From positions 352,001 to 416,000 of the forward strand of contig JBMFRC010000001.1 of the NCBI GenBank assembly GCA_049968235.1: a DNA stretch of 64,000 nt, given 5' to 3'. The stretch is from Candidatus Hydrogenedens sp. (lineage in GTDB: Bacteria; Hydrogenedentota; Hydrogenedentia; Hydrogenedentales; Hydrogenedentaceae). A program made the position numbers and the translations under genes. Position 1 is the first letter of the stretch, and every line of letters starts with the position of its first letter. The notes beneath the pieces were generated by a model. It had not been told where the DNA came from and ran no database searches. It saw only the letters and a program-made list of their open reading frames with translations. Shown piece by piece: positions 4,878-13,542 of the stretch.

Positions 4878-5066
4878 AGATGAAAAAATAAAGTATACTC
4901 AACATAAAGAAGGAATATATACAAAAATACAAACAAGATTGTTTCTATGAAATATCACAAATTTTTTTTTTCGACATCCAAAAGTTGTTTATTATATGAT
5001 TAAAAACCCGGTATATTAAAATCTGAAATAAAAATGACAAAAAAACATCTATGAAGGAGTTGTATC

Positions 5067-6635
5067 TTGATTGAGTATGTAACATTACATTGGATAGATT
5101 TAACGATCATTGGCGTTTATATGGTAGGTTGTTTTGCATTAGGCACCTATACCAGTCGGTATATTGAAAATGCAGGAGATTTCTTTATTTCAGGTAAATC
5201 CCTCCCTTTCTGGGCGATTGCATTTTCTATCGTTGTGAGTGACATCGGAGCCTTAGACTTTGTTGGAGTTGCCGGAAATGCTTATAGATACGGAGTATCT
5301 GCTGCTAATTTTGACTGGTTAGGGTCCATGCCTGCTATGGTATTTGCCGCATTTATATTTGTTCCTTACTTCTGGCGTTCAGGGGTATTTACCATTCCCG
5401 AATTTTTAGGAAGAAGATATAACTCAGCGGTTCAGGTAATTAATGCTCTTATCTGGACCTCTGTAATGTTATTGTCTCTGATGATAATGCTCTGGACAAC
5501 AGCGGATGACCTTGTCTATACCATTTTAGGATATAAACCTATATATACAGTTTGGGTTATGGCGGGTGTTACAGGTTTCTATACCTTTGCAGGAGGATTA
5601 TCCGCCGTGGTAATGACCGATGTAGTTCAGTTAATAGTAATGTATGTTGGGGGGTTAGGTTTGCTGGCATTAAGTTTATGGGAAGTCGGTGGATGGAGTG
5701 TTATGAGAGCCAAAATAGAGGCACTCGGTCCGGAATATGCAAATCATTTTACAATTCTTCTGCCAAACAGCATAGAAAATCCATTCCCATGGACAGGAAT
5801 TGTCTTCGGTCTGGGTATTGTTCTTGCCATCGCTTATATGAGTGGAAATCAGGCAATTGTTCACAGAACATTGGGCGCCCGTTCTGAATGGGATGCCAAA
5901 GCAGGGATGCTCATGGGAGGTTTTTTGAAGTCTTTTATTCCATTAATGGTAGCTCTGCCCGGACTCTGCGCTATTGTTTATCTGCATGAAAGAAACATTA
6001 TATTGCATGAACAGGATAAAGTTATTCCCACTATGATACGGATGATGCTACCACCAGGATTACGAGGACTTATGTTTGCAGCTCTTTTTGCTGCATTAAT
6101 GTCCAGTATCTCCGGCACTCTTAGTTCTGCTTCCACCATATTTGTTACAGATATTTTCAATAAGCTCTGGACATTAGGAAGAAAAAAATCATTAGACGAA
6201 AAACAGGCTTTATATGTGGGACGAGGTTTTACCTTGTTTCTTATCATAAGTAGTGCCATCTTTGCGGAACAAATATCACGAGTTGGTGGAATTTATAATT
6301 TTATCCAAACTATTTTGTCTCTATTTCAAGGTCCCTCTCTGGCTATTCTATTGCTTGGAATTATGTGGAAACGAGCCACCGGTTGGGGAGGTCTGGTAGG
6401 CTTAATATCCGGCGTCTTTTTCTGTTTTATTTTATGGTGTGTTCCCAACCTATTCCCTGCAGAAGACCCATTCTTATTTGTTTCCATGTGGTCTTTTGTC
6501 TTCTCAATCATTGTTACTGTAATAGTTAGTCTTCTAACCCCGCCCGAACCCGAAGAAAAGATTCGGGGTTTGGTCTGGGGGTCTGTTGTTCAGGATATAA
6601 AAGCACAAAAAGCCTTAGCGGAAAGGATTCAATAA
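5067..6635 (+). CDS. Sodium:solute symporter family (SSF) transporter
   Basis: 522 aa, 13-14 TM helices. N-terminal GAxDFFxxGxSLPFWAIAFSIVxSDIGA and GRRYNS motifs, characteristic of the SSF (SLC5-like) family. TTG start with a GAAGGAG SD 8 nt upstream. Confidence 0.8.
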   Translation: MIEYVTLHWIDLTIIGVYMVGCFALGTYTSRYIENAGDFFISGKSLPFWAIAFSIVVSDIGALDFVGVAGNAYRYGVSAANFDWLGSMPAMVFAAFIFVPYFWRSGVFTIPEFLGRRYNSAVQVINALIWTSVMLLSLMIMLWTTADDLVYTILGYKPIYTVWVMAGVTGFYTFAGGLSAVVMTDVVQLIVMYVGGLGLLALSLWEVGGWSVMRAKIEALGPEYANHFTILLPNSIENPFPWTGIVFGLGIVLAIAYMSGNQAIVHRTLGARSEWDAKAGMLMGGFLKSFIPLMVALPGLCAIVYLHERNIILHEQDKVIPTMIRMMLPPGLRGLMFAALFAALMSSISGTLSSASTIFVTDIFNKLWTLGRKKSLDEKQALYVGRGFTLFLIISSAIFAEQISRVGGIYNFIQTILSLFQGPSLAILLLGIMWKRATGWGGLVGLISGVFFCFILWCVPNLFPAEDPFLFVSMWSFVFSIIVTVIVSLLTPPEPEEKIRGLVWGSVVQDIKAQKALAERIQ

Positions 6636-7078
6636 TGAATATCTATACAAAAACTATTTTTTCTATACTCTTTGTTCCCATAATTTGCACTATGTTTTCC
6701 ATTAGCGCATTTACACAAACAAATGAAACTGCCTCTAAAGATGTGGATATTCCCAAAGCAGAGGTTTCTTACATATTTCATCTTGCAGATAAAGTAGTGG
6801 ACAGTTGGTTAGCGTTCCTAGACGGATTGGGCAGGACATTTGACCCTATCATAAGACCTATTTTCAGACCTATTACAACATTCTTAGAACGCACTTATCA
6901 GCCCTGGGCTAAAATATGTGCTCTGGGATTATTTGTTGGCACTATGCTCTGGGTATGGCTCGGAATGCCTAAAGAATATGTTAACCTGGGTAGAAAAAAG
7001 AAAACTGTGTGGACAGATCTAAGATTGTGGACAATCATTTCCATGCTTCCTCATATTATTGTATATCTATACTTCTAA
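6635..7078 (+). CDS. Small membrane protein translationally coupled to the SSF transporter
   Basis: TAATG stop/start overlap with the upstream transporter. N-terminal signal/TM segment and a C-terminal TM pair. Confidence 0.5.
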   Translation: MNIYTKTIFSILFVPIICTMFSISAFTQTNETASKDVDIPKAEVSYIFHLADKVVDSWLAFLDGLGRTFDPIIRPIFRPITTFLERTYQPWAKICALGLFVGTMLWVWLGMPKEYVNLGRKKKTVWTDLRLWTIISMLPHIIVYLYF

Positions 7079-7094
7079 CTTAGGAGATTTTCAT

Positions 7095-7388
7095 ATGGCA
7101 AACGAAGAAAAGAACATAAATACTCAGGACCGCGGCGAAATGCACCGCATTGATAATGAACGAAATCAAGGAGTGCAATTAGAACATAGAGATGCAGAAT
7201 TATATATTGTGATGGGGATTTTTGTAGTGGCTTTAGGTTTGCCTGTTATTTTAGGGACTTATTTCTCCATGCAAGCAAGTAATTACCGACCCGCAGTTGT
7301 GAATTTTATTTGCGGTGTTGTAATGACGGGTATTGGAATAGCATCAATCCTTTACGGCTGGGCTATGAAGAAAAGACTCTTGTCGTGA
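7095..7388 (+). CDS. Small two-TM membrane protein (hypothetical)
   Basis: ATG at 7095 preceded by a TAGGAG SD at 7081-7086. The tracker start at 7059 is probably too long. Two hydrophobic helices. Confidence 0.4.
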   Translation: MANEEKNINTQDRGEMHRIDNERNQGVQLEHRDAELYIVMGIFVVALGLPVILGTYFSMQASNYRPAVVNFICGVVMTGIGIASILYGWAMKKRLLS

Positions 7389-8011
7389 ACAACACAGTTC
7401 CTTCAGGATATATACCGCTTCGTTATACACAAAAAGAAGTTCCTTTACGACTGCCTGTCCCGCGATTTTATCGCTATCGAACACAGATTAGTAAATTATT
7501 TCTATCATTCTCAGGCAAAGTAGTCCCTCTACCCATACAAGAATTACCTAAGTATGAGTTAGTCGCCTGGCCTCTGTATATAGTCCGATTCTTTTTACAG
7601 TCTGGTACAGAGAAAACACAAGAAATATTTATCGCTGTAGATGCCTGGACAAGAACAATTGCACGATTTGAGCGTATAAAAGAGATACAAGACACTCCTA
7701 CCGCAGATTTTCAATTATGGATTAAACCTTCTATATCATTAGACGAAGTAAAATCTATCGCCCGGTACGGACTCATGCATCAGTTGCTACGCCAGCGAAG
7801 ATTACAACCTGCCCCTGAAACGGTTATACCCGAAATTATATTTTTAGTTTATACGCCTATATGGGCATGTTATTTTGCACGAACTCTACACTCCTTAGAT
7901 GTTCGACTTCTCGATGGTTATTCCGGTGAAAAAATAGGTTCCCAAACCCGAAGTGCCTTCTTAAATGCTCTGATACATCATCACTCTGAAAAATCAGGAA
8001 CTTCTTATTGA
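7385..8011 (+). CDS. Hypothetical protein; probable GTG start overlapping the upstream stop (GTGA)
   Basis: Open frame 7310-8011. The GTG at 7385 overlaps the TGA of the upstream gene, a classic coupling arrangement. No recognisable domain. Confidence 0.35.
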   Translation: MNNTVPSGYIPLRYTQKEVPLRLPVPRFYRYRTQISKLFLSFSGKVVPLPIQELPKYELVAWPLYIVRFFLQSGTEKTQEIFIAVDAWTRTIARFERIKEIQDTPTADFQLWIKPSISLDEVKSIARYGLMHQLLRQRRLQPAPETVIPEIIFLVYTPIWACYFARTLHSLDVRLLDGYSGEKIGSQTRSAFLNALIHHHSEKSGTSY

Positions 8012-8169
8012 AAACAACTATATACTTTGTATATACCTATTAAAAACTTTCACCTCGAACAATCGGAAATTATTTTAATATAAATTAGTGGAAACTTTTT
8101 ATATTTGTGCTAAAGTTAATATAACACCTAAAAAGTTTGCAGTAAATTTCCCCAGATAATGCAAATATT

Positions 8170-8415
8170 CTACATGGCCAGCAAGATATAAAACATTTCC
8201 TCCTCCCGGAAATGATTAAAATGAGCCGAATTCCCAAAAGCACCAAACTCATCCCACATTACAGGAAGTTCACTTGCAGATAATGATAATCTCGAAGGAT
8301 TATTAATATCTGTAATTAAAAATCGCTCAACACATTTTCTTAATCTCGGAACAGGACTTAAATCACCTAATTTCACGGCAAACCTATCTTTTATAGGAAG
8401 GGAATCGTCATACAT
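8170..8415 (-). CDS. Small hypothetical ORF downstream of the pilin-like pseudogene; possibly a remnant
   Basis: 81-aa ORF with no recognisable motif. The H-x9 spacing after NSAH is followed by FY rather than the DG of the DUF1559 C-terminus, so it may be a decayed 3' piece of the pilin-like gene. Confidence 0.2.
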   Translation of the reverse strand: MYDDSLPIKDRFAVKLGDLSPVPRLRKCVERFLITDINNPSRLSLSASELPVMWDEFGAFGNSAHFNHFREEEMFYILLAM

Positions 8416-8492
8416 CTTTACTACCTACTGTAACATTCCTATCCTCTCGGGCTTAAAATACTGAATAGCCTGAATCATAACCGCGCAAGGGT

Positions 8493-8981
8493 CTACTCCG
8501 AGAGGAAGTTACTTGTGTTTGATGGAAGAGGCACACCTGGTTTAATTAGCATATCAGGGTGTGGAGCCCATCCAAAATAATTGTAACTGCCTTTATCAAA
8601 TTGGCAGGGTAATATAGGTTTATTGAAATCATAATCTACATGAAATCTCGTACGAACAGATTCTGCATCAGAATCAGAAAGGAATACACAGATATTAAAA
8701 TCCGGCATATATTCTGGATACAATAGGGTAGGTTCAAAAATTGCATCGAAAACGAAATTGCCATGACAATCTAATAATTTTATGGGAGGATAATACTCTC
8801 CCTTTGCTTCATTCGCATACATTTCAAATATTACACCCATTTGTTTTAAATTATTCTGACATGACGAATGTCTTACCGTCTCTCTTGCTCTTGCTTATGC
8901 AGGCGATAATATTGTAGCAAGATTCCCTATAATCGCAATGACAACTAATAATTCAATCAGCGTAAATCCTTTCTTTTTCAT
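8493..8981 (-). pseudogene. Prepilin-type N-terminal cleavage/methylation-domain protein (planctomycete DUF1559-like pseudopilin), interrupted by an in-frame TAA at 8895-8897
   Basis: Minus-strand translation from ATG 8979-8981 gives [65 protein letters not shown]... This is the canonical T2SS/T4P-like leader plus the ARARE..[8 protein letters not shown](M/I)G motif. The stop falls exactly where the conserved Leu of ...PALARARE is expected (TTA to TAA). The frame is preserved on both sides. Confidence 0.6.
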
Positions 8982-8989
8982 TTTTAATC

Positions 8990-9360
8990 TCCTTTCCAAA
9001 TAAGGTTAAAATTTTATTTTTATCGATATGAGTTCTTTATATCACATGATATAACATAATAAATATTAATAACCAATAATGATTATTATAATAAATATAT
9101 TATATTATAACATGTTATTCAATGTTAATTTAATATATAATTTAAGTTATTATACAATAGTAGAAATTATAATAGAATATCAATATTTGTTATACTCATT
9201 ATTAATATTTACTATTATATCTCTATTTTACTAAAACGTTCTAACTATGCTATCGATTTATAGGAGTAATACAAGAATTACTCTTGAGACCTCTGAATAA
9301 AAAAATACGATAAATAGTATATGAAAAATTATATATAGGAAGGGTAAAAGGGAAAAGTAA
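8990..9360. repeat. Extremely AT-rich non-coding core packed with short palindromic A/T words
   Basis: About 370 bp of almost pure A/T (e.g. ataatgattattataataaatatattatattataa). No ORF. Lies between the pilin-like gene start and the 3' end of the GntR-ABC operon. Confidence 0.7.
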
Positions 9361-10013
9361 ATATGTGGTATGATGAAAGAGGCAAAGCAGGTAAGTTTTT
9401 TATATTATGCAGTGTCAAAACAAAGACTGACATGATGAGAGAAATGATTGAGAGTAATGCAAGAGATAACCCTGTGGGAGAAATTGGAATGCAGATGAGT
9501 AGAGGGGAGAGTATAAGTCAAACCGGGGAGAGCGGAGGAGTTCGTCTTTACTATTTTATGCATTTTTGAATACTGAGTGATGATTTTTCTGTGTTCTCTG
9601 TGGTTGATTACATTTTTTCACCACGGAGGACACAGAGGAGCATAGATAAAGGAGCATATCATTTCTTGCTAATGACTGCATATAATTTAAAACGGATGTA
9701 TGGAAAATTAAGGAAACAAAAGGAGAGATATGCATAGATAACAAAAAGATAGAAAAACGGACAGAAAACAACAAATAAAATGGGTAAAAGTAAAAATATA
9801 GACTCTTGCATTTTAATTCCTCATCGGGGTTTTATCTCGTAAAAACATGTATAATTTATACTCTAACCTCTTACACAAATTGTTCAGAGGTCTCATTGAA
9901 TAATAAGACTCTATGTAATTCAGATAGAAAAGCCCGTGTCTATTTTAATGAATTTTCCATTCGTCCTGTTTGCCTAATTGGGTCGCTCGGTCTTACTTGC
10001 TTTTATTGAAGAC

Positions 10014-12356
10014 TTATTGGGGAATAAGTGAAGAAAAGTCAACATTTGCTGATATATCTGGCTGGCGACGGATATTTAAAGGAAGCATTATAAAAACATA
10101 ATCCCCTTCTATCCTATGTTTTATTCCTTTTTGTAAATACATATCTACCCCGCCATCATCTTTTCTATCCATGCCTATGCTATATATTTTAAATGCAAAG
10201 TCATCTCCTTTTATATATGTAATTGGTTCGCCATTTTTCCATGGGTCCTCAGGAATTTTAGAAATATAATCGGGAACAAGTTCTTTTAGATTATCAGGAA
10301 GCCGATTATTTTTCAAACGAAATCGTTCAATGGCTATAGCGGTTTGAACAAGATTTATAAGAACATAGTGCCGTAATTCGGAATCAAAACAGCGGTCCAA
10401 TGACGGGTATATTATGTTGAGGTTTATATAAAGCCAGTGTGGGGGAATAGATGTGAAGAGTGAATTTATTTCTCTCTTTTTCAGAAGATGAGTCTTATAG
10501 TCATCGAACGAACATTTTTCTTGTATGCAAATGTTTTCTTTTTGTGCTACATTGGTAGCCGTTTTTCTTAGTGCGGTATATAGATTCATTGCCACCATTC
10601 TTTCTATATCTGTAAGATAAAAAACATCAAAGATAGGAACCCATGATTTAATTATATTTCTCAATTGATAATATTGAAGGTACTTATATTTTTGTATCCA
10701 GGAACTATATTCAATTAAGAATCCTTCTCTTTGAACCATAGGTAAAACAGACAGAAACATCAGTAATTCTGTATGTAAACTCAAATTAAATAAGGACCTT
10801 TCTTCAGGAGGTACCGAAAAATTCTGAACAATATTACTTAATTCTAAAAGTACTTCTTCGGATAGTTCTTGATGATTAATAATCCATTCTAAATTATCAT
10901 AGAATTTCCTAAACATGGCAATATATACAAGTTGTGAAATATATACAGGTTCATCTTTTAGAGATTTAGAAACAGAGGCACAGGTTCGCAATGCCCGCAA
11001 CATATTTCCATAATCACCATCTATGGCACTTAAAATAGCCTCCAACCCTAATTTCCTCTCAAAATCTCGCAATTCGGAAAGATGTCCCAATTCCACAGAA
11101 TAACCCTTAGTTAAATCAATTGAATAGTACCCTTTTGTTAGACCACTTTCAGCAGTTTCATGGAGTTTTTGGGTTAATTTTTTATATACCTTCTCGTAAA
11201 CTTCTTTATATAACCAGTAGAGATTTTCCGATAGGGGCTTATCATATCTTATTATATCGCCATAAAAACGGTTCAATATTATCTTTAGATATTCTTTTTC
11301 TTCCTGTGTTTTAAATTTTTCATCAATCTCCTTTTGATACAATTTTTCAAAATCCATTTCCTTCAAAATGACATCTCGACAAAGAGGAAATAAATCGTAA
11401 TATTTCCGGGCAATGTTCTCCTTTTGCGGAACGGAACTATATTTTTCATTCATTTCTTTTAAGGTTGCAGGGAGAGAATTTCCTCTAAAATAAGCAATAC
11501 ATTTTTCAATAGTTCCTGTTTGTAAATGGGAAATAAGCGTTAAGATTGCAAAACAAAGGGGCAGTAAATATCCAACACATAAGAATGAAACCCGTTCCTC
11601 TATATACGGAGAATTCCCAGAATTTTCCAATAAATCTTTCTCTGGTGTTTTCCAATAATAACCATGTGCAAATAACAGAAGATTGAGCCATGTTATAGCA
11701 AAGATTGCAGATAAGAACAGATATGTACCTCCAAGTATGGATGTATTAAGAATACCCAAATATTGCCATGGCACTATGCAGACAAAAATACTAAGGAAAA
11801 TAATTAGCAGGAAAATCCTTTCTTTTTTCCCTAACAAACGGGCTCGGATTGTAATGAATAAATAAACAAAAAACATGATAAGATAGTAAAAATAAACTGC
11901 ATGAAAAACGATATAGATAAGGGAAAGAGAAAATTTCCTACATGAAGGGAAAATAATAAATAACAAATTCTTAACAAAAGAAATAAGCCACGAAACCCCT
12001 TGCCCTATTCCAAAAAGATGATATAGGGTCATAAACCATTCTTTATTTGAGTATATATAAAAGGAGGACAATGAATAAAAAGATATAAGCAGACACAGGA
12101 CAAGAAACGAAAAGATAAGAATACTTGATGGGTTAAACATGATTAACCAGACAATTATCCCATAAGTAATGACAATCCCGGTAATAAATATCATAAGGGG
12201 CATTAAGAAAGAATTTATATCAGGGAAAGGAATCTGCAAACTTGCCAGAGCGGGGTCTGGTACAATATGCATCTTAAACTTCCAATAAAAATAGATAAAC
12301 TCTATATCCAGATAACAGGCAATGTTATGAAAAGATTTATGTTCCCTGCTAACCAA
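10014..12356 (-). CDS. Large membrane protein: N-terminal polytopic domain, central soluble domain, C-terminal GspG-type pseudopilin-like motif
   Basis: 780 aa. The first ~270 aa carry 8 or more hydrophobic helices. The C-terminus reads LPDNLKELVPDYISKIPEDPWKNGEPITYIKGDDFAFKIYSIGMDRKDDGG. This matches the T2SS major pseudopilin C-terminal consensus (LPxDL...DPWGxxY...FDLxSLGADGxxGG). Confidence 0.55.
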   Translation of the reverse strand: MVSREHKSFHNIACYLDIEFIYFYWKFKMHIVPDPALASLQIPFPDINSFLMPLMIFITGIVITYGIIVWLIMFNPSSILIFSFLVLCLLISFYSLSSFYIYSNKEWFMTLYHLFGIGQGVSWLISFVKNLLFIIFPSCRKFSLSLIYIVFHAVYFYYLIMFFVYLFITIRARLLGKKERIFLLIIFLSIFVCIVPWQYLGILNTSILGGTYLFLSAIFAITWLNLLLFAHGYYWKTPEKDLLENSGNSPYIEERVSFLCVGYLLPLCFAILTLISHLQTGTIEKCIAYFRGNSLPATLKEMNEKYSSVPQKENIARKYYDLFPLCRDVILKEMDFEKLYQKEIDEKFKTQEEKEYLKIILNRFYGDIIRYDKPLSENLYWLYKEVYEKVYKKLTQKLHETAESGLTKGYYSIDLTKGYSVELGHLSELRDFERKLGLEAILSAIDGDYGNMLRALRTCASVSKSLKDEPVYISQLVYIAMFRKFYDNLEWIINHQELSEEVLLELSNIVQNFSVPPEERSLFNLSLHTELLMFLSVLPMVQREGFLIEYSSWIQKYKYLQYYQLRNIIKSWVPIFDVFYLTDIERMVAMNLYTALRKTATNVAQKENICIQEKCSFDDYKTHLLKKREINSLFTSIPPHWLYINLNIIYPSLDRCFDSELRHYVLINLVQTAIAIERFRLKNNRLPDNLKELVPDYISKIPEDPWKNGEPITYIKGDDFAFKIYSIGMDRKDDGGVDMYLQKGIKHRIEGDYVFIMLPLNIRRQPDISANVDFSSLIPQ

Positions 12357-13099
12357 TAGGTATAAATTCGTTCTTTTCGATTCATAGGGATATGGGACAA
12401 CAAATAAACACCTGATTTATAATCTCTTCTCATCCGTCGGCTTACTTTCAAATGCCAGACAAGCCCTGATAACACTAAAGCAATCAGTGGGAAAAATACG
12501 AACAGTAAGTCCAGTAAGTAAGAATAGTCGAAGGAGACTATCCACCGCATTGCCAGCAATATAAACATAACAGAAACATAAAGAGTAAAAAGTAAAAACC
12601 AGAAAATACCCGTCCATACGGGAATAATCAGTCCATTATTTCTGAGTTCAAACCAGACCTGAGCAATTTGACTATTCGGAAAACTTTTAATAACCATATT
12701 CGGTTCTAATTTGCTTAGGACACTACGAAGACGCAAAGGAAGTAATAACTTTATATCTTTTTTTATGCCAGTCCTTACCTGTGAAGTAATTTTTACACTC
12801 AAAAACCAGATGAGGTAAGTATAAAGTATTACTAACACCAAAAATATTAAGTAAGTATATGTAGAAAAGGATATTTTATTTTCATACTCTGCACCTGTAA
12901 AAGGTAAAGAACCAAATAAAAAGGGAATTACCCTATCCATAATAGTTGCATAGTCCAAAACTGCTAATATCACACATGAAAAAATAGAAAGAAATATAAT
13001 TATTCCTACCAAAAATGGTGAAAAGACAAAAAACCAGCATAAAAATTGAATAGTGAGATACACAATCCCATGTATAACAGCAGGGAAAATTAAAGGCAC
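12302..13099 (-). CDS. Polytopic membrane protein (possible permease component of the GntR-ABC operon)
   Basis: 265 aa, about 6 TM helices. Overlaps its neighbours at both ends, consistent with operon coupling. Confidence 0.45.
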   Translation of the reverse strand: MPLIFPAVIHGIVYLTIQFLCWFFVFSPFLVGIIIFLSIFSCVILAVLDYATIMDRVIPFLFGSLPFTGAEYENKISFSTYTYLIFLVLVILYTYLIWFLSVKITSQVRTGIKKDIKLLLPLRLRSVLSKLEPNMVIKSFPNSQIAQVWFELRNNGLIIPVWTGIFWFLLFTLYVSVMFILLAMRWIVSFDYSYLLDLLFVFFPLIALVLSGLVWHLKVSRRMRRDYKSGVYLLSHIPMNRKERIYTYWLAGNINLFITLPVIWI

Positions 13100-13542
13100 A
13101 TAAAAAGGAAGTTCAAGAGGGAAAAATTTTGAAAGGCATCCATGTATCTATGGGTAGATAATTCATAAGGTACATATTCTGATAAAATAAAAGCCACAAC
13201 AAACCGTAAAAGAAAAGTAGAGAGAATAACTAAAAAGAGCCGTGTAAATAAAGATACAGTTACAATTAAAGATAAAGTTATGGGAAGATGAAATATTCTA
13301 TGTGGAAAACCAATATGCATTTCTCCGGAATTACCTATCTGAAGGAGTAAAAGAATGGATATAGCATAAACCGTAAGATACAAACTAATGTCTACATCTT
13401 TCCAGTCAACAAGAAATATGGGGACAAAAATACGAAAGGAAATAGCAACAAATATGCACATTCCTAAAACAACACCAAAAATACTACCCCCTACATATAA
13501 TTCCTCCCACAATAAGGCTTTCCGAGACGAGTTAAGTTTCAT
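13090..13542 (-). CDS. Small polytopic membrane protein (operon member)
   Basis: 150 aa, about 4 TM helices. Lies between the ABC ATPase and the 265-aa membrane protein. Confidence 0.4.
   Translation of the reverse strand: MKLNSSRKALLWEELYVGGSIFGVVLGMCIFVAISFRIFVPIFLVDWKDVDISLYLTVYAISILLLLQIGNSGEMHIGFPHRIFHLPITLSLIVTVSLFTRLFLVILSTFLLRFVVAFILSEYVPYELSTHRYMDAFQNFSLLNFLFMCL

What the first reader, a model, noticed from the sequence alone, without database searches (positions are those of the whole stretch)
8493..8981. Planctomycete-type prepilin (DUF1559-like) gene interrupted by a single in-frame TAA at a conserved Leu codon
Minus-strand reading gives [51 protein letters not shown]... This is the canonical prepilin leader and the ARARE...[10 protein letters not shown] block, in one continuous frame. 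The stop (8895-8897) is exactly where the Leu of PALARARE is expected, one transversion away (TTA to TAA). That points to a very recent nonsense mutation, a sequencing error, or possibly a regulated readthrough site. No H-x9-DG tail is found in frame downstream, so the 3' part may also be decayed; see the small ORF at 8170-8415.
Basis: seen in the sequence. Interest (0 to 1): 0.55.

Follow-up and report, generated by a model that had tools for sequence, protein, structure and literature searches.

The report
Decayed DUF1559 prepilin-like pseudogene
This is an ordinary dead copy of a pilin-like gene from a large paralogous family in a Candidatus Hydrogenedens genome: it carries two premature stops, two frameshifts and many damaged conserved residues, so the TAA is not a lone recent mutation, a sequencing error or a readthrough site.

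Summary
On the minus strand, ATG 8981, a canonical prepilin leader ([14 protein letters not shown]...), TAA at 8897-8895 and ARARE...[10 protein letters not shown] all lie in one frame. The TAA replaces a Leu that is invariant in 120 homologs and is TTA in the closest intact gene.

It is not the only lesion. The gene runs from 8981 to 8099 and aligns end to end (84% nt, same terminal TAA) with an intact 294-aa Hydrogenedentota gene. Against that gene it has four disabling lesions:
- TTA>TAA at codon 29
- a 1-bp deletion between 8511 and 8510
- CAG>TAG at 8427-8425
- a 1-bp deletion between 8210 and 8209

The H-X9-DG tail exists, out of frame at 8214-8177, with its Asp mutated to Ala. Eleven of 78 near-invariant family positions are broken, against a mean of 0.53 in intact homologs. 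The window's branch has excess nonsynonymous change (p = 1.5e-4).

Two other MAG assemblies carry all four lesions, and one has a fifth, so assembly error is excluded. An intact 294-aa ortholog occupies the same syntenic position in a related species. Other relatives lack the gene there.

Verdict: an established multi-lesion pseudogene, deposited in GenBank as three separate CDSs. Low interest.

The parts
8099..8981 (-). Whole pseudogene: remnant of a 294-codon prepilin-like DUF1559 / H-X9-DG gene, from the ATG (8981-8979) to the original terminal TAA (8101-8099)
   Evidence: Colinear DNA alignment with the intact P0001 gene (L001:10001-10885): 84% identity over 883 nt and the same stop position. 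tblastn of family members hits three successive frames. The repaired translation hits 294-aa homologs at 83% identity and 100% coverage.
8989..8993 (-). Shine-Dalgarno-like AGGAG, 7 nt upstream of the ATG, still intact
   Evidence: Read directly from the sequence. That it functions is inferred.
8898..8981 (-). Codons 1-28: class III (prepilin) signal with the G|FTLIE cleavage/methylation motif and a hydrophobic helix. This is the only part that can still be translated from the original start (a 28-aa product). It carries I20N, A23T and L26S at near-invariant positions.
   Evidence: PF07963 at 30.9 bits. TIGR02532 at 37.4 bits for the 28-mer. Conserved-column violations.
8895..8897 (-). Lesion 1: nonsense TAA at codon 29 (TTA Leu in the intact homolog)
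   Evidence: The column is 100% Leu in 120 homologs. Identical in L007 and L008.
8510..8511 (-). Lesion 2: 1-bp deletion between these two bases (gene position 472). It shifts the reading frame, and the shifted frame then ends at TAG 8495-8493.
   Evidence: Pairwise DNA alignment. tblastn/tblastx frame change at 8511/8508. Not in a homopolymer run.
8425..8427 (-). Lesion 3: nonsense TAG at codon 186 (CAG Gln in P0001, L171 and P0002)
8209..8210 (-). Lesion 4: 1-bp deletion between these two bases (gene position 774; placement +/-2 nt). Second frameshift, inside the H-X9-DG motif.
   Evidence: Frame change in tblastn at about 8212/8209.
8177..8214 (-). Remnant of the C-terminal H-X9-DG motif (H-x-PGGGNVLYL-AG). 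It is split by lesion 4, and the conserved Asp is replaced by Ala (D268A).
   Evidence: Three-frame translation. TIGR04294 is met by intact P0001 (20.9 bits, cutoff 19) but gives no hit for the repaired window protein. D is 98% conserved.
8672..8672 (-). Site of an additional 1-bp deletion found only in strain L008 (GCA_049969095.1). It would be a fifth lesion.
   Evidence: It could also be an assembly error in that MAG.

Best explanation
Window 8981-8099 (minus strand) is a non-functional relic (unitary pseudogene) of one member of the large DUF1559 / H-X9-DG family of prepilin-like proteins, in a Candidatus Hydrogenedens sp. genome.

The ancestral gene encoded a 294-aa protein. By established knowledge of type IV pilin-like proteins, it had a class III signal peptide that a prepilin peptidase cleaves after Gly5 and N-methylates at Phe6. 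A globular DUF1559 domain and a C-terminal H-X9-DG motif followed.

In this lineage the gene became dispensable and was inactivated. It has since drifted without constraint and accumulated two nonsense codons, two 1-bp deletions and about 24 amino-acid replacements, 10 of them at near-invariant positions.

At most, a 28-residue N-terminal stub can still be translated from the original start. The downstream 115-aa and 81-aa ORFs are frame fragments, not genes.

Shown: the homology, the lesions, their presence in three assemblies, the relaxed constraint, and an intact positional ortholog. Inferred: loss of function, dispensability, and that no fragment has a role.
For: 1. End-to-end colinearity with intact genes. 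The locus is 84% nt identical to the P0001 gene with the same stop codon, and the only gaps are two 1-bp deletions. The repaired protein is 83/78/71% identical to P0001/P0002/P0003 at 100% coverage.
2. Four disabling lesions, mapped.
3. Damage at conserved positions. 11 of 78 columns that are >=95% conserved in 120 homologs are violated, against a mean of 0.53 in intact homologs and 0, 1 and 0 in P0001-P0003. The violations include C100F, P101L, G217C and D268A in the H-X9-DG motif. TIGR04294 is lost.
4. Branch-specific changes. The window branch has 22 synonymous against 24 nonsynonymous plus 2 stop changes. The two intact sister branches together have 57 against 14 (Fisher p = 1.5e-4). This gives omega of roughly 0.33 against 0.07. 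The overall dN/dS of 0.11 against P0001 shows the gene was constrained for most of its history.
5. The lesions are real. L007 (GCA_049971155.1) is identical over the whole pseudogene. L008 (GCA_049969095.1) shares all four lesions and has one more deletion. The 28-aa and 81-aa fragments are each on record from three NCBI contigs.
6. The assembly is sound. 79% of the window lies in ORFs of >=200 codons. The four neighbouring genes in the syntenic block are intact, with the same lengths as in relatives: 522/147/97/208 aa against 523/150/96/209 aa.
7. An intact positional ortholog exists. L171 and L172 have SSF, 150 aa, 96 aa and 209 aa genes followed by a convergent intact 294-aa gene. L171 aligns continuously with window 4953-8995 at 78% nt identity. 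The neighbours' dS (0.9-2.1) matches the pseudogene's dS (1.26).
8. The gene is dispensable. It is absent from this position in L170, L174 and L175. The family is highly paralogous, with 68 copies in P. limnophila (PMC10632474) and 74 in R. baltica (PMC2754498).
Against: - No expression data, so transcription of the locus or translation of the 28-aa stub cannot be excluded. The SD and ATG are intact.
- Only 64 kb of the genome is available, so I cannot say whether a functional paralog compensates.
- The order and age of the lesions are not resolved, because all three strains share the four lesions.
- The parsimony counts of branch-specific changes are approximate, because dS to the outgroups is near saturation.
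Confidence: 0.93

Rival explanations
1. Sequencing or assembly artefact: the gene is intact in the organism, and the TAA (and the indels) are errors in the consensus.
For: The sequences are MAG-derived. One strain (L008) differs by a single-base indel inside the locus, which is the kind of difference an assembly error could produce.
Against: Three independently deposited assemblies share all four lesions base for base. The two deletions are not in homopolymer runs. The rest of the window has long uninterrupted ORFs, and the four adjacent genes are intact. Errors would not produce 10 missense changes at invariant residues.
Confidence: 0.02
2. One reading: an otherwise intact gene hit very recently by one nonsense mutation.
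For: The TAA is one transversion from the ancestral TTA. The overall dN/dS against P0001 is still low at 0.11.
Against: There are three additional disabling lesions. Nonsynonymous change is in excess on this branch. Eleven conserved-column violations are spread along the whole gene, including upstream of the TAA. All lesions predate the split of three strains.
Confidence: 0.02
3. Programmed recoding: TAA readthrough (or reassignment) and ribosomal frameshifting yield a full-length protein.
For: None beyond the in-frame continuation after the TAA.
Against: It would need two readthrough events (TAA and TAG) and two +1 frameshifts at sites with no slippery or repeat context. TAA terminates 25 of 39 long ORFs in the window. 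No ortholog has any of these features. Conserved residues, including the H-X9-DG Asp, are lost. No Rfam element is present.
Confidence: 0.01
4. Retained function of a fragment: the 28-aa leader stub (SD, ATG and G|FTLIE all intact) is made, perhaps processed by prepilin peptidase, and has a role. Alternatively, the 115-aa or 81-aa ORFs act as new small proteins.
For: The SD and start codon are intact. The 28-mer scores well on TIGR02532. A strong sigma-70-like match (11 of 12) lies about 118 nt upstream at 9128-9099, although such matches are not enriched over shuffles.
Against: Three of the 28 residues are radical changes at near-invariant hydrophobic-helix positions (I20N, A23T, L26S), so the stub itself looks unconstrained. 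The fragments have no family hits and no relatives outside these three near-identical strains. Strain L008 has a further frameshift inside the 115-aa ORF and a SNP in the -10-like hexamer.
Confidence: 0.03

Closest known systems
DUF1559 / SBP_bac_10 (PF07596) proteins with a prepilin N-terminal domain (PF07963, TIGR02532) and a C-terminal H-X9-DG motif (TIGR04294). The family is massively paralogous in Planctomycetes and is abundant here in Hydrogenedentota.
   Same: Same architecture and length as the intact members. The locus is colinear over all 294 codons with P0001, P0002, P0003 and the L171 ortholog. It has the [15 protein letters not shown] leader, the ARARE...SCQNNLK block, ERFLITDINNP and the PGGGNVLY..GHV tail.
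   Different: It is not an intact member: it has two stops and two frameshifts, the H-X9-DG Asp is lost, and TIGR04294 is no longer detected. The host is Candidatus Hydrogenedens, not a planctomycete.
Type IV pilins / T2SS pseudopilins (GspG, PilA, ComGC)
   Same: Class III signal peptide, Glu5 and an N-terminal hydrophobic helix. There are weak N-terminal hits to the GspG, PilA and ComGC models.
   Different: All equivalog scores are far below their cutoffs (for example GspG 30.6 against 88.85). The globular part is DUF1559, not a pilin head domain. No pilus or T2SS assembly genes lie next to it.
Ordinary bacterial unitary pseudogenes, split by annotation pipelines into several short 'hypothetical' CDSs
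   Same: Multiple frameshifts and stops, relaxed constraint, an intact ortholog at the syntenic position, and fragments annotated as separate CDSs of 28, 109/115 and 81 aa.
   Different: Nothing notable.

Membership tests
Prepilin-type N-terminal cleavage/methylation domain (PF07963 / TIGR02532) | G-F-T-L-I-E motif followed by a hydrophobic helix, scoring above the curated cutoff | tested here: met
   PF07963 at 30.9 bits against 21.2. TIGR02532 at 31.9-37.4 bits against 16.3.
DUF1559 (PF07596, SBP_bac_10) | Pfam HMM score at or above the gathering threshold | tested here: inconclusive
   The frame-2 segment scores 22.1 bits against a cutoff of 23.3. Intact close homologs also carry only 'weak' PF07596 hits.
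DUF1559 (PF07596, SBP_bac_10) | Full-length homology to recognised family members | tested here: met
   The repaired protein gives E = 4e-160 and 83% identity at 100% coverage to P0001. All 120 listed hits carry PF07963 plus PF07596.
H-X9-DG C-terminal domain (TIGR04294) | His, nine residues, then Asp-Gly near the C-terminus, scoring above the cutoff | tested here: not met
   No hit for the repaired window protein, while P0001 scores 20.9 against a cutoff of 19. The motif is split by a frameshift, and Asp is replaced by Ala.
Functional (intact) gene of the family | Uninterrupted ORF of about 294 codons | tested here: not met
   Two nonsense codons and two 1-bp deletions.
Pseudogene | Homology to an intact gene, with disabling lesions that are real rather than assembly errors | tested here: met
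   three assemblies share all four lesions.
Pseudogene | Relaxed selective constraint on the lineage | tested here: met
   22 synonymous against 26 nonsynonymous-plus-stop changes, compared with 57 against 14 on intact branches, p = 1.5e-4. 11 conserved-column violations against a mean of 0.53.
Pseudogene | Intact ortholog at the syntenic position in a relative | tested here: met
   L171 and L172 carry an intact 294-aa gene convergent to the 209-aa neighbour. L171 aligns continuously with window 4953-8995.
Programmed stop-codon readthrough / recoding | A single recoded stop with an otherwise intact downstream frame, conserved in orthologs | tested here: not met
   The downstream frame is broken three more times, and no ortholog has the stop.
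Alternative genetic code (TAA reassigned) | TAA not used as a terminator; in-frame TAA widespread in genes | tested here: not met
   25 of 39 ORFs of >=200 codons end in TAA, and 79% of the window lies in such ORFs under table 11.
Phase-variable (contingency) gene | Frameshifts in a homopolymer or short tandem repeat tract | tested here: not met
   The deletion contexts are ACAAGT^AACTT and CATTT^CCGGG, with no repeat tract.

The most novel reading that the evidence does not exclude
The 28-residue stub ([28 protein letters not shown]) keeps an intact ribosome-binding site, start codon and prepilin-peptidase site. It may still be expressed and processed into a 23-residue membrane peptide that has some effect, for example as a competing substrate for the prepilin peptidase or a cap or decoy in pseudopilus assembly. 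That would mean gene decay has created a micro-pilin.
Probability: 0.03. Interest if true: 0.4.

Novelty: new member of a known kind. Interest (0 to 1): 0.08.

Why it matters
It matters little biologically. One copy of a highly paralogous, individually dispensable gene family has died in one Candidatus Hydrogenedens lineage.

The practical value is for annotation. Three GenBank CDSs should be merged into a single pseudogene feature: a 28-aa 'type IV pilin protein' and two 'hypothetical proteins' of 81 and 109/115 aa.

The locus also gives a small, clean example of turnover in this family at a synteny breakpoint. The gene is intact in some relatives, deleted in others and decaying here. That may be useful to anyone studying the birth and death dynamics of the unexplained DUF1559 expansions in Planctomycetes and Hydrogenedentota.

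Tried and rejected
- Exact-sequence look-ups of the 115-aa ORF and the 233-aa TTG-start version of the neighbour found nothing. The deposited gene calls use different starts. The 147-aa neighbour worked.
The order of the lesions therefore could not be resolved.
- The genome-contig scan gave only one close locus, L009 at 71%. The window's own species is apparently not among the representatives, or was missed.
- The Rfam scan of 7800-10200 at E <= 1 and of the whole window at gathering thresholds found nothing. There are no tRNAs.
- The promoter scan found no more sigma-70-like sites than in shuffles (16 against 11.9 +/- 3.2), so it gives no real evidence on whether the relic is transcribed.
- The upstream regions of the window, L009, L001 and L089 align poorly, so no conserved promoter could be defined.
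- I considered and rejected readthrough, an alternative code, phase variation and assembly error. The reasons are in the rival explanations and the membership tests.
- I considered that P0001 (the closest sequence, 83% aa) is the ortholog. It lies in an unrelated context with no flanking homology. The positional ortholog is the L171 gene (81% aa). Synonymous distances suggest the P0001 lineage is closer and relocated the gene, but this remains unproven.

Full report
**1. The observation**

An AGGAG at 8993-8989 is followed by ATG at 8981-8979. The translation is [28 protein letters not shown], then TAA at 8897-8895, then [37 protein letters not shown]... in the same frame.

The N-terminus passes the curated thresholds of the prepilin cleavage/methylation models: PF07963 at 30.9 bits against 21.2 and TIGR02532. 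The DUF1559 model PF07596 is hit just below its gathering score, at 22.1 against 23.3. This is therefore not a chance resemblance.

The same three-frame translation shows that the frame with the leader ends at 8493 only because the coding sequence moves to another frame. The sequence ...LPLGVDPCAVMIQAIQYFKPERIGMLQ*VVKMYDDSLPIKDRFAVKLGDLSPVPRLRKCVERFLITDINNPSRLSLSASELPVMWDEFGAFGNSAHFNH continues in a second frame. PGGGNVLYLAGHVEYLHYLGKFTANFLGVILTLAQI* continues in a third.

**2. What it is homologous to**

A conceptual repair of the three segments (293 aa) retrieves thousands of relatives. All of the best 120 are annotated with PF07963 plus PF07596. The top hits are intact proteins of 294-295 aa at 83% (P0001), 78% (P0002) and 71% (P0003) identity over 100% of the query, and where named they come from Candidatus Hydrogenedentes/Hydrogenedentota MAGs. 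P0001 is encoded intact on at least six independently assembled contigs.

**3. Lesion map**

I aligned window 8981-8085 (minus strand) with the P0001 gene (L001:10001-10885). The alignment is colinear from ATG to the same terminal TAA (window 8101-8099), with 84% identity over 883 nt and only two internal gaps. Relative to the intact gene, the window copy has four disabling lesions:
1. TTA>TAA at codon 29 (8897-8895).
2. A 1-bp deletion between 8511 and 8510.
3. CAG>TAG at codon 186 (8427-8425). P0001, L171 and P0002 all have CAG here.
4. A 1-bp deletion between 8210 and 8209.

Neither deletion lies in a homopolymer or repeat tract. tblastn and tblastx of family members against the window independently show the same three-frame path. 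No other family member exists in the 64 kb.

It is split by lesion 4, and its Asp is replaced by Ala. Accordingly, TIGR04294 is detected in P0001 (20.9 bits, cutoff 19) but not in the repaired window protein.

**4. Evidence for relaxed constraint**

In an alignment with the 120 homologs, 78 columns are >=95% conserved. The window copy violates 11 of them: I20N, A23T, L26S, L29stop, A36V, R38H, C100F, P101L, G217C, D268A and P281T. Intact homologs violate 0.53 on average, and P0001, P0002 and P0003 violate 0, 1 and 0.

I polarised single-base changes with the P0001, L171 and P0002 genes as references. The window's own branch carries 22 synonymous, 24 nonsynonymous and 2 nonsense changes. The P0001 and L171 branches carry 20/5 and 37/9. 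Fisher's exact test of 22:26 against 57:14 gives p = 1.5e-4.

With roughly 3.6 nonsynonymous sites per synonymous site, omega is about 0.33 on the window branch and about 0.07 on intact branches.

The pairwise dN/dS against P0001 is still 0.11. The gene was therefore functional for most of its history. It is an established pseudogene, but not an ancient one.

The replacements are spread over all segments, including the 28 codons upstream of the TAA. This argues that even the translatable stub is not under selection.

**5. Not an artefact**

The neighbouring 147-aa protein led to two further NCBI MAG contigs, L007 (GCA_049971155.1) and L008 (GCA_049969095.1). They are 99.9% identical to the window.

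L007 is identical across the entire pseudogene. L008 shares all four lesions and has an extra 1-bp deletion at 8672, plus SNPs at 9104 and 9194 in the upstream spacer.

The 28-aa and 81-aa fragments are each on record from three NCBI contigs, the longest being 421,442 bp. They are named 'type IV pilin protein' and 'hypothetical protein' of Candidatus Hydrogenedens sp..

The window itself is well assembled. 79% of it lies in ORFs of >=200 codons, and these end in TAA (25), TGA (9) or TAG (5). That also rules out any reassignment of TAA.

**6. Ancestral state and locus dynamics**

I searched with the convergent downstream neighbour (window 7385-8011, 208 aa) and found orthologs at 90-71% identity. 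Their loci show the following:
- **L171 and L172** contain the same block as the window (SSF symporter, 150 aa, 96 aa, 209 aa), followed by an intact, convergent 294-aa N_methyl/DUF1559 gene. L171 aligns continuously with window 4953-8995 at 78% nt identity, and the homology stops just upstream of the ATG.
- **L173** shows the same arrangement up to its contig end.
- **Synonymous distances agree.** The flanking genes between the window and L171 have dS of 0.9-2.1, with SSF at 1.4. The pseudogene has dS of 1.26. This is the positional ortholog, so the ancestor had an intact gene here.
- **L170**, where the neighbour is 90% aa identical, has a PLD-like gene in place of the DUF1559 gene.
- **L174 and L175** have the neighbour directly followed by a DUF4130 gene.
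- **L009**, which is related to them, keeps an intact copy (P0003) plus two extra genes.
- **P0001**, the closest sequence, sits in an unrelated context with no flanking homology.

The gene therefore lies at a synteny breakpoint. Across relatives it has been kept, moved, deleted or, as here, left to decay.

This fits a family known for very high paralog numbers: 68 in Planctopirus limnophila, of which only two are essential (PMC10632474), and 74 in Rhodopirellula baltica (PMC2754498). The biochemical function of the family is still unknown. Its Pfam name suggests solute binding.

**7. Mechanism**

From established knowledge of type IV pilin-like proteins, the ancestral product would be inserted in the inner membrane. 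A prepilin peptidase would cleave it after Gly5 and N-methylate it at Phe6.

In the window, translation from the original start ends after 28 residues. The remaining ORFs (115 aa at 8840-8493 and 81 aa at 8415-8170) are frame fragments with no family hits of their own.

I conclude that the locus is non-functional (confidence 0.93). The remaining doubt concerns only whether the 28-aa stub is made and does anything.

**8. Rivals**

- **Assembly error** is excluded by the three concordant assemblies and the intact neighbours.
- **A lone recent nonsense mutation** is excluded by the other three lesions and the excess of replacements.
- **Programmed readthrough or frameshifting** would require four recoding events at sites without any recoding context. 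It is contradicted by the loss of invariant residues downstream and by the absence of these features in every ortholog.
- **Phase variation** is excluded by the lack of repeat tracts.
- **A functional 28-aa peptide** cannot be formally excluded, but three radical substitutions in its hydrophobic helix disfavour it.

**9. Comparison with the known, and novelty**

By descent the locus belongs to the DUF1559 / H-X9-DG prepilin-like family. It is not a functional member, because the intact-ORF and H-X9-DG criteria were tested and failed.

As a kind of object it is an ordinary bacterial pseudogene that annotation pipelines have split into three CDSs. I rate it as a new member of a known kind, with low interest (0.08).

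The useful outputs are a corrected annotation and a documented example of turnover in this paralogous family within Hydrogenedentota.

Noticed in passing
window 8982-10013: About 1 kb upstream of the pseudogene is gene-free and very AT-rich (the 8001-10000 bin has 31.7% GC against 38% for the window), with no homology to the upstream regions of the intact orthologs. In L171 the synteny ends exactly at the gene's start. The only ORF called there by the depositors is 68 aa (9363-9569, +).
   Followed up: partly
window 9588-9636: An isolated stable hairpin with 17-nt arms (TCTGTGTYCTCYGTGGT) and a 15-nt loop. Folding gives -20.8 kcal/mol and z = -4.7 against shuffles. The motif occurs nowhere else in the window or in 174 other fetched loci, apart from the same-strain locus L008. 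There is no Rfam match and its function is unknown.
   Followed up: partly
window 10014-12356 (-): A 780-aa ORF with a long, apparently multi-pass hydrophobic N-terminal part and a C-terminal end resembling the T2SS GspG globular domain (PF08334, weak: E = 0.008, below cutoff; ...DPWKNGEPITYIKGDDFAFKIYSIGMDRKDDGG). It is followed by two ORFs with no Pfam hits (12302-13099 and 13090-13542). This is an unusual architecture that I did not investigate.
   Followed up: no
window 8672, 9104 and 9194 (against L008): Of the five differences between the window and strain L008 over 5.7 kb, three fall in the pseudogene or its upstream spacer. One is an extra 1-bp deletion at 8672. Another is a SNP at 9104 that changes the first base of the -10-like hexamer of the best sigma-70-like match (9128-9099, 11 of 12). 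This fits neutral drift, but the numbers are too small to test.
   Followed up: partly
GenBank records MGC8737276-8, MGC8845843-4 and MGC9053486-8 (window 8170-8981): The pseudogene is deposited as three separate CDSs: a 28-aa 'type IV pilin protein' and 81-aa and 109/115-aa 'hypothetical proteins'. These should be a single pseudogene feature.
   Followed up: yes
L001:9988-10899, L170:1064-2296, L174:837-4063, L009:10885-12381: The DUF1559 gene sits at a rearrangement hotspot. The most similar intact copy (P0001) is in an unrelated neighbourhood, and its homology to the window is limited to the gene plus or minus about 15 nt. L170 has a PLD-like (HKD motif) gene at the position. L174 and L175 have DUF4130 directly adjacent. 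L009 has two extra genes (154 and 260 aa) inserted between the DUF1559 gene and the conserved neighbour, plus a second, 334-aa DUF1559 paralog 2.5 kb upstream.
   Followed up: partly
window 8194-8214 (-): A terminator-like hairpin followed by a T-run is predicted inside the coding remnant, overlapping the H-X9-DG motif and the second frameshift. It is probably coincidental.
   Followed up: no
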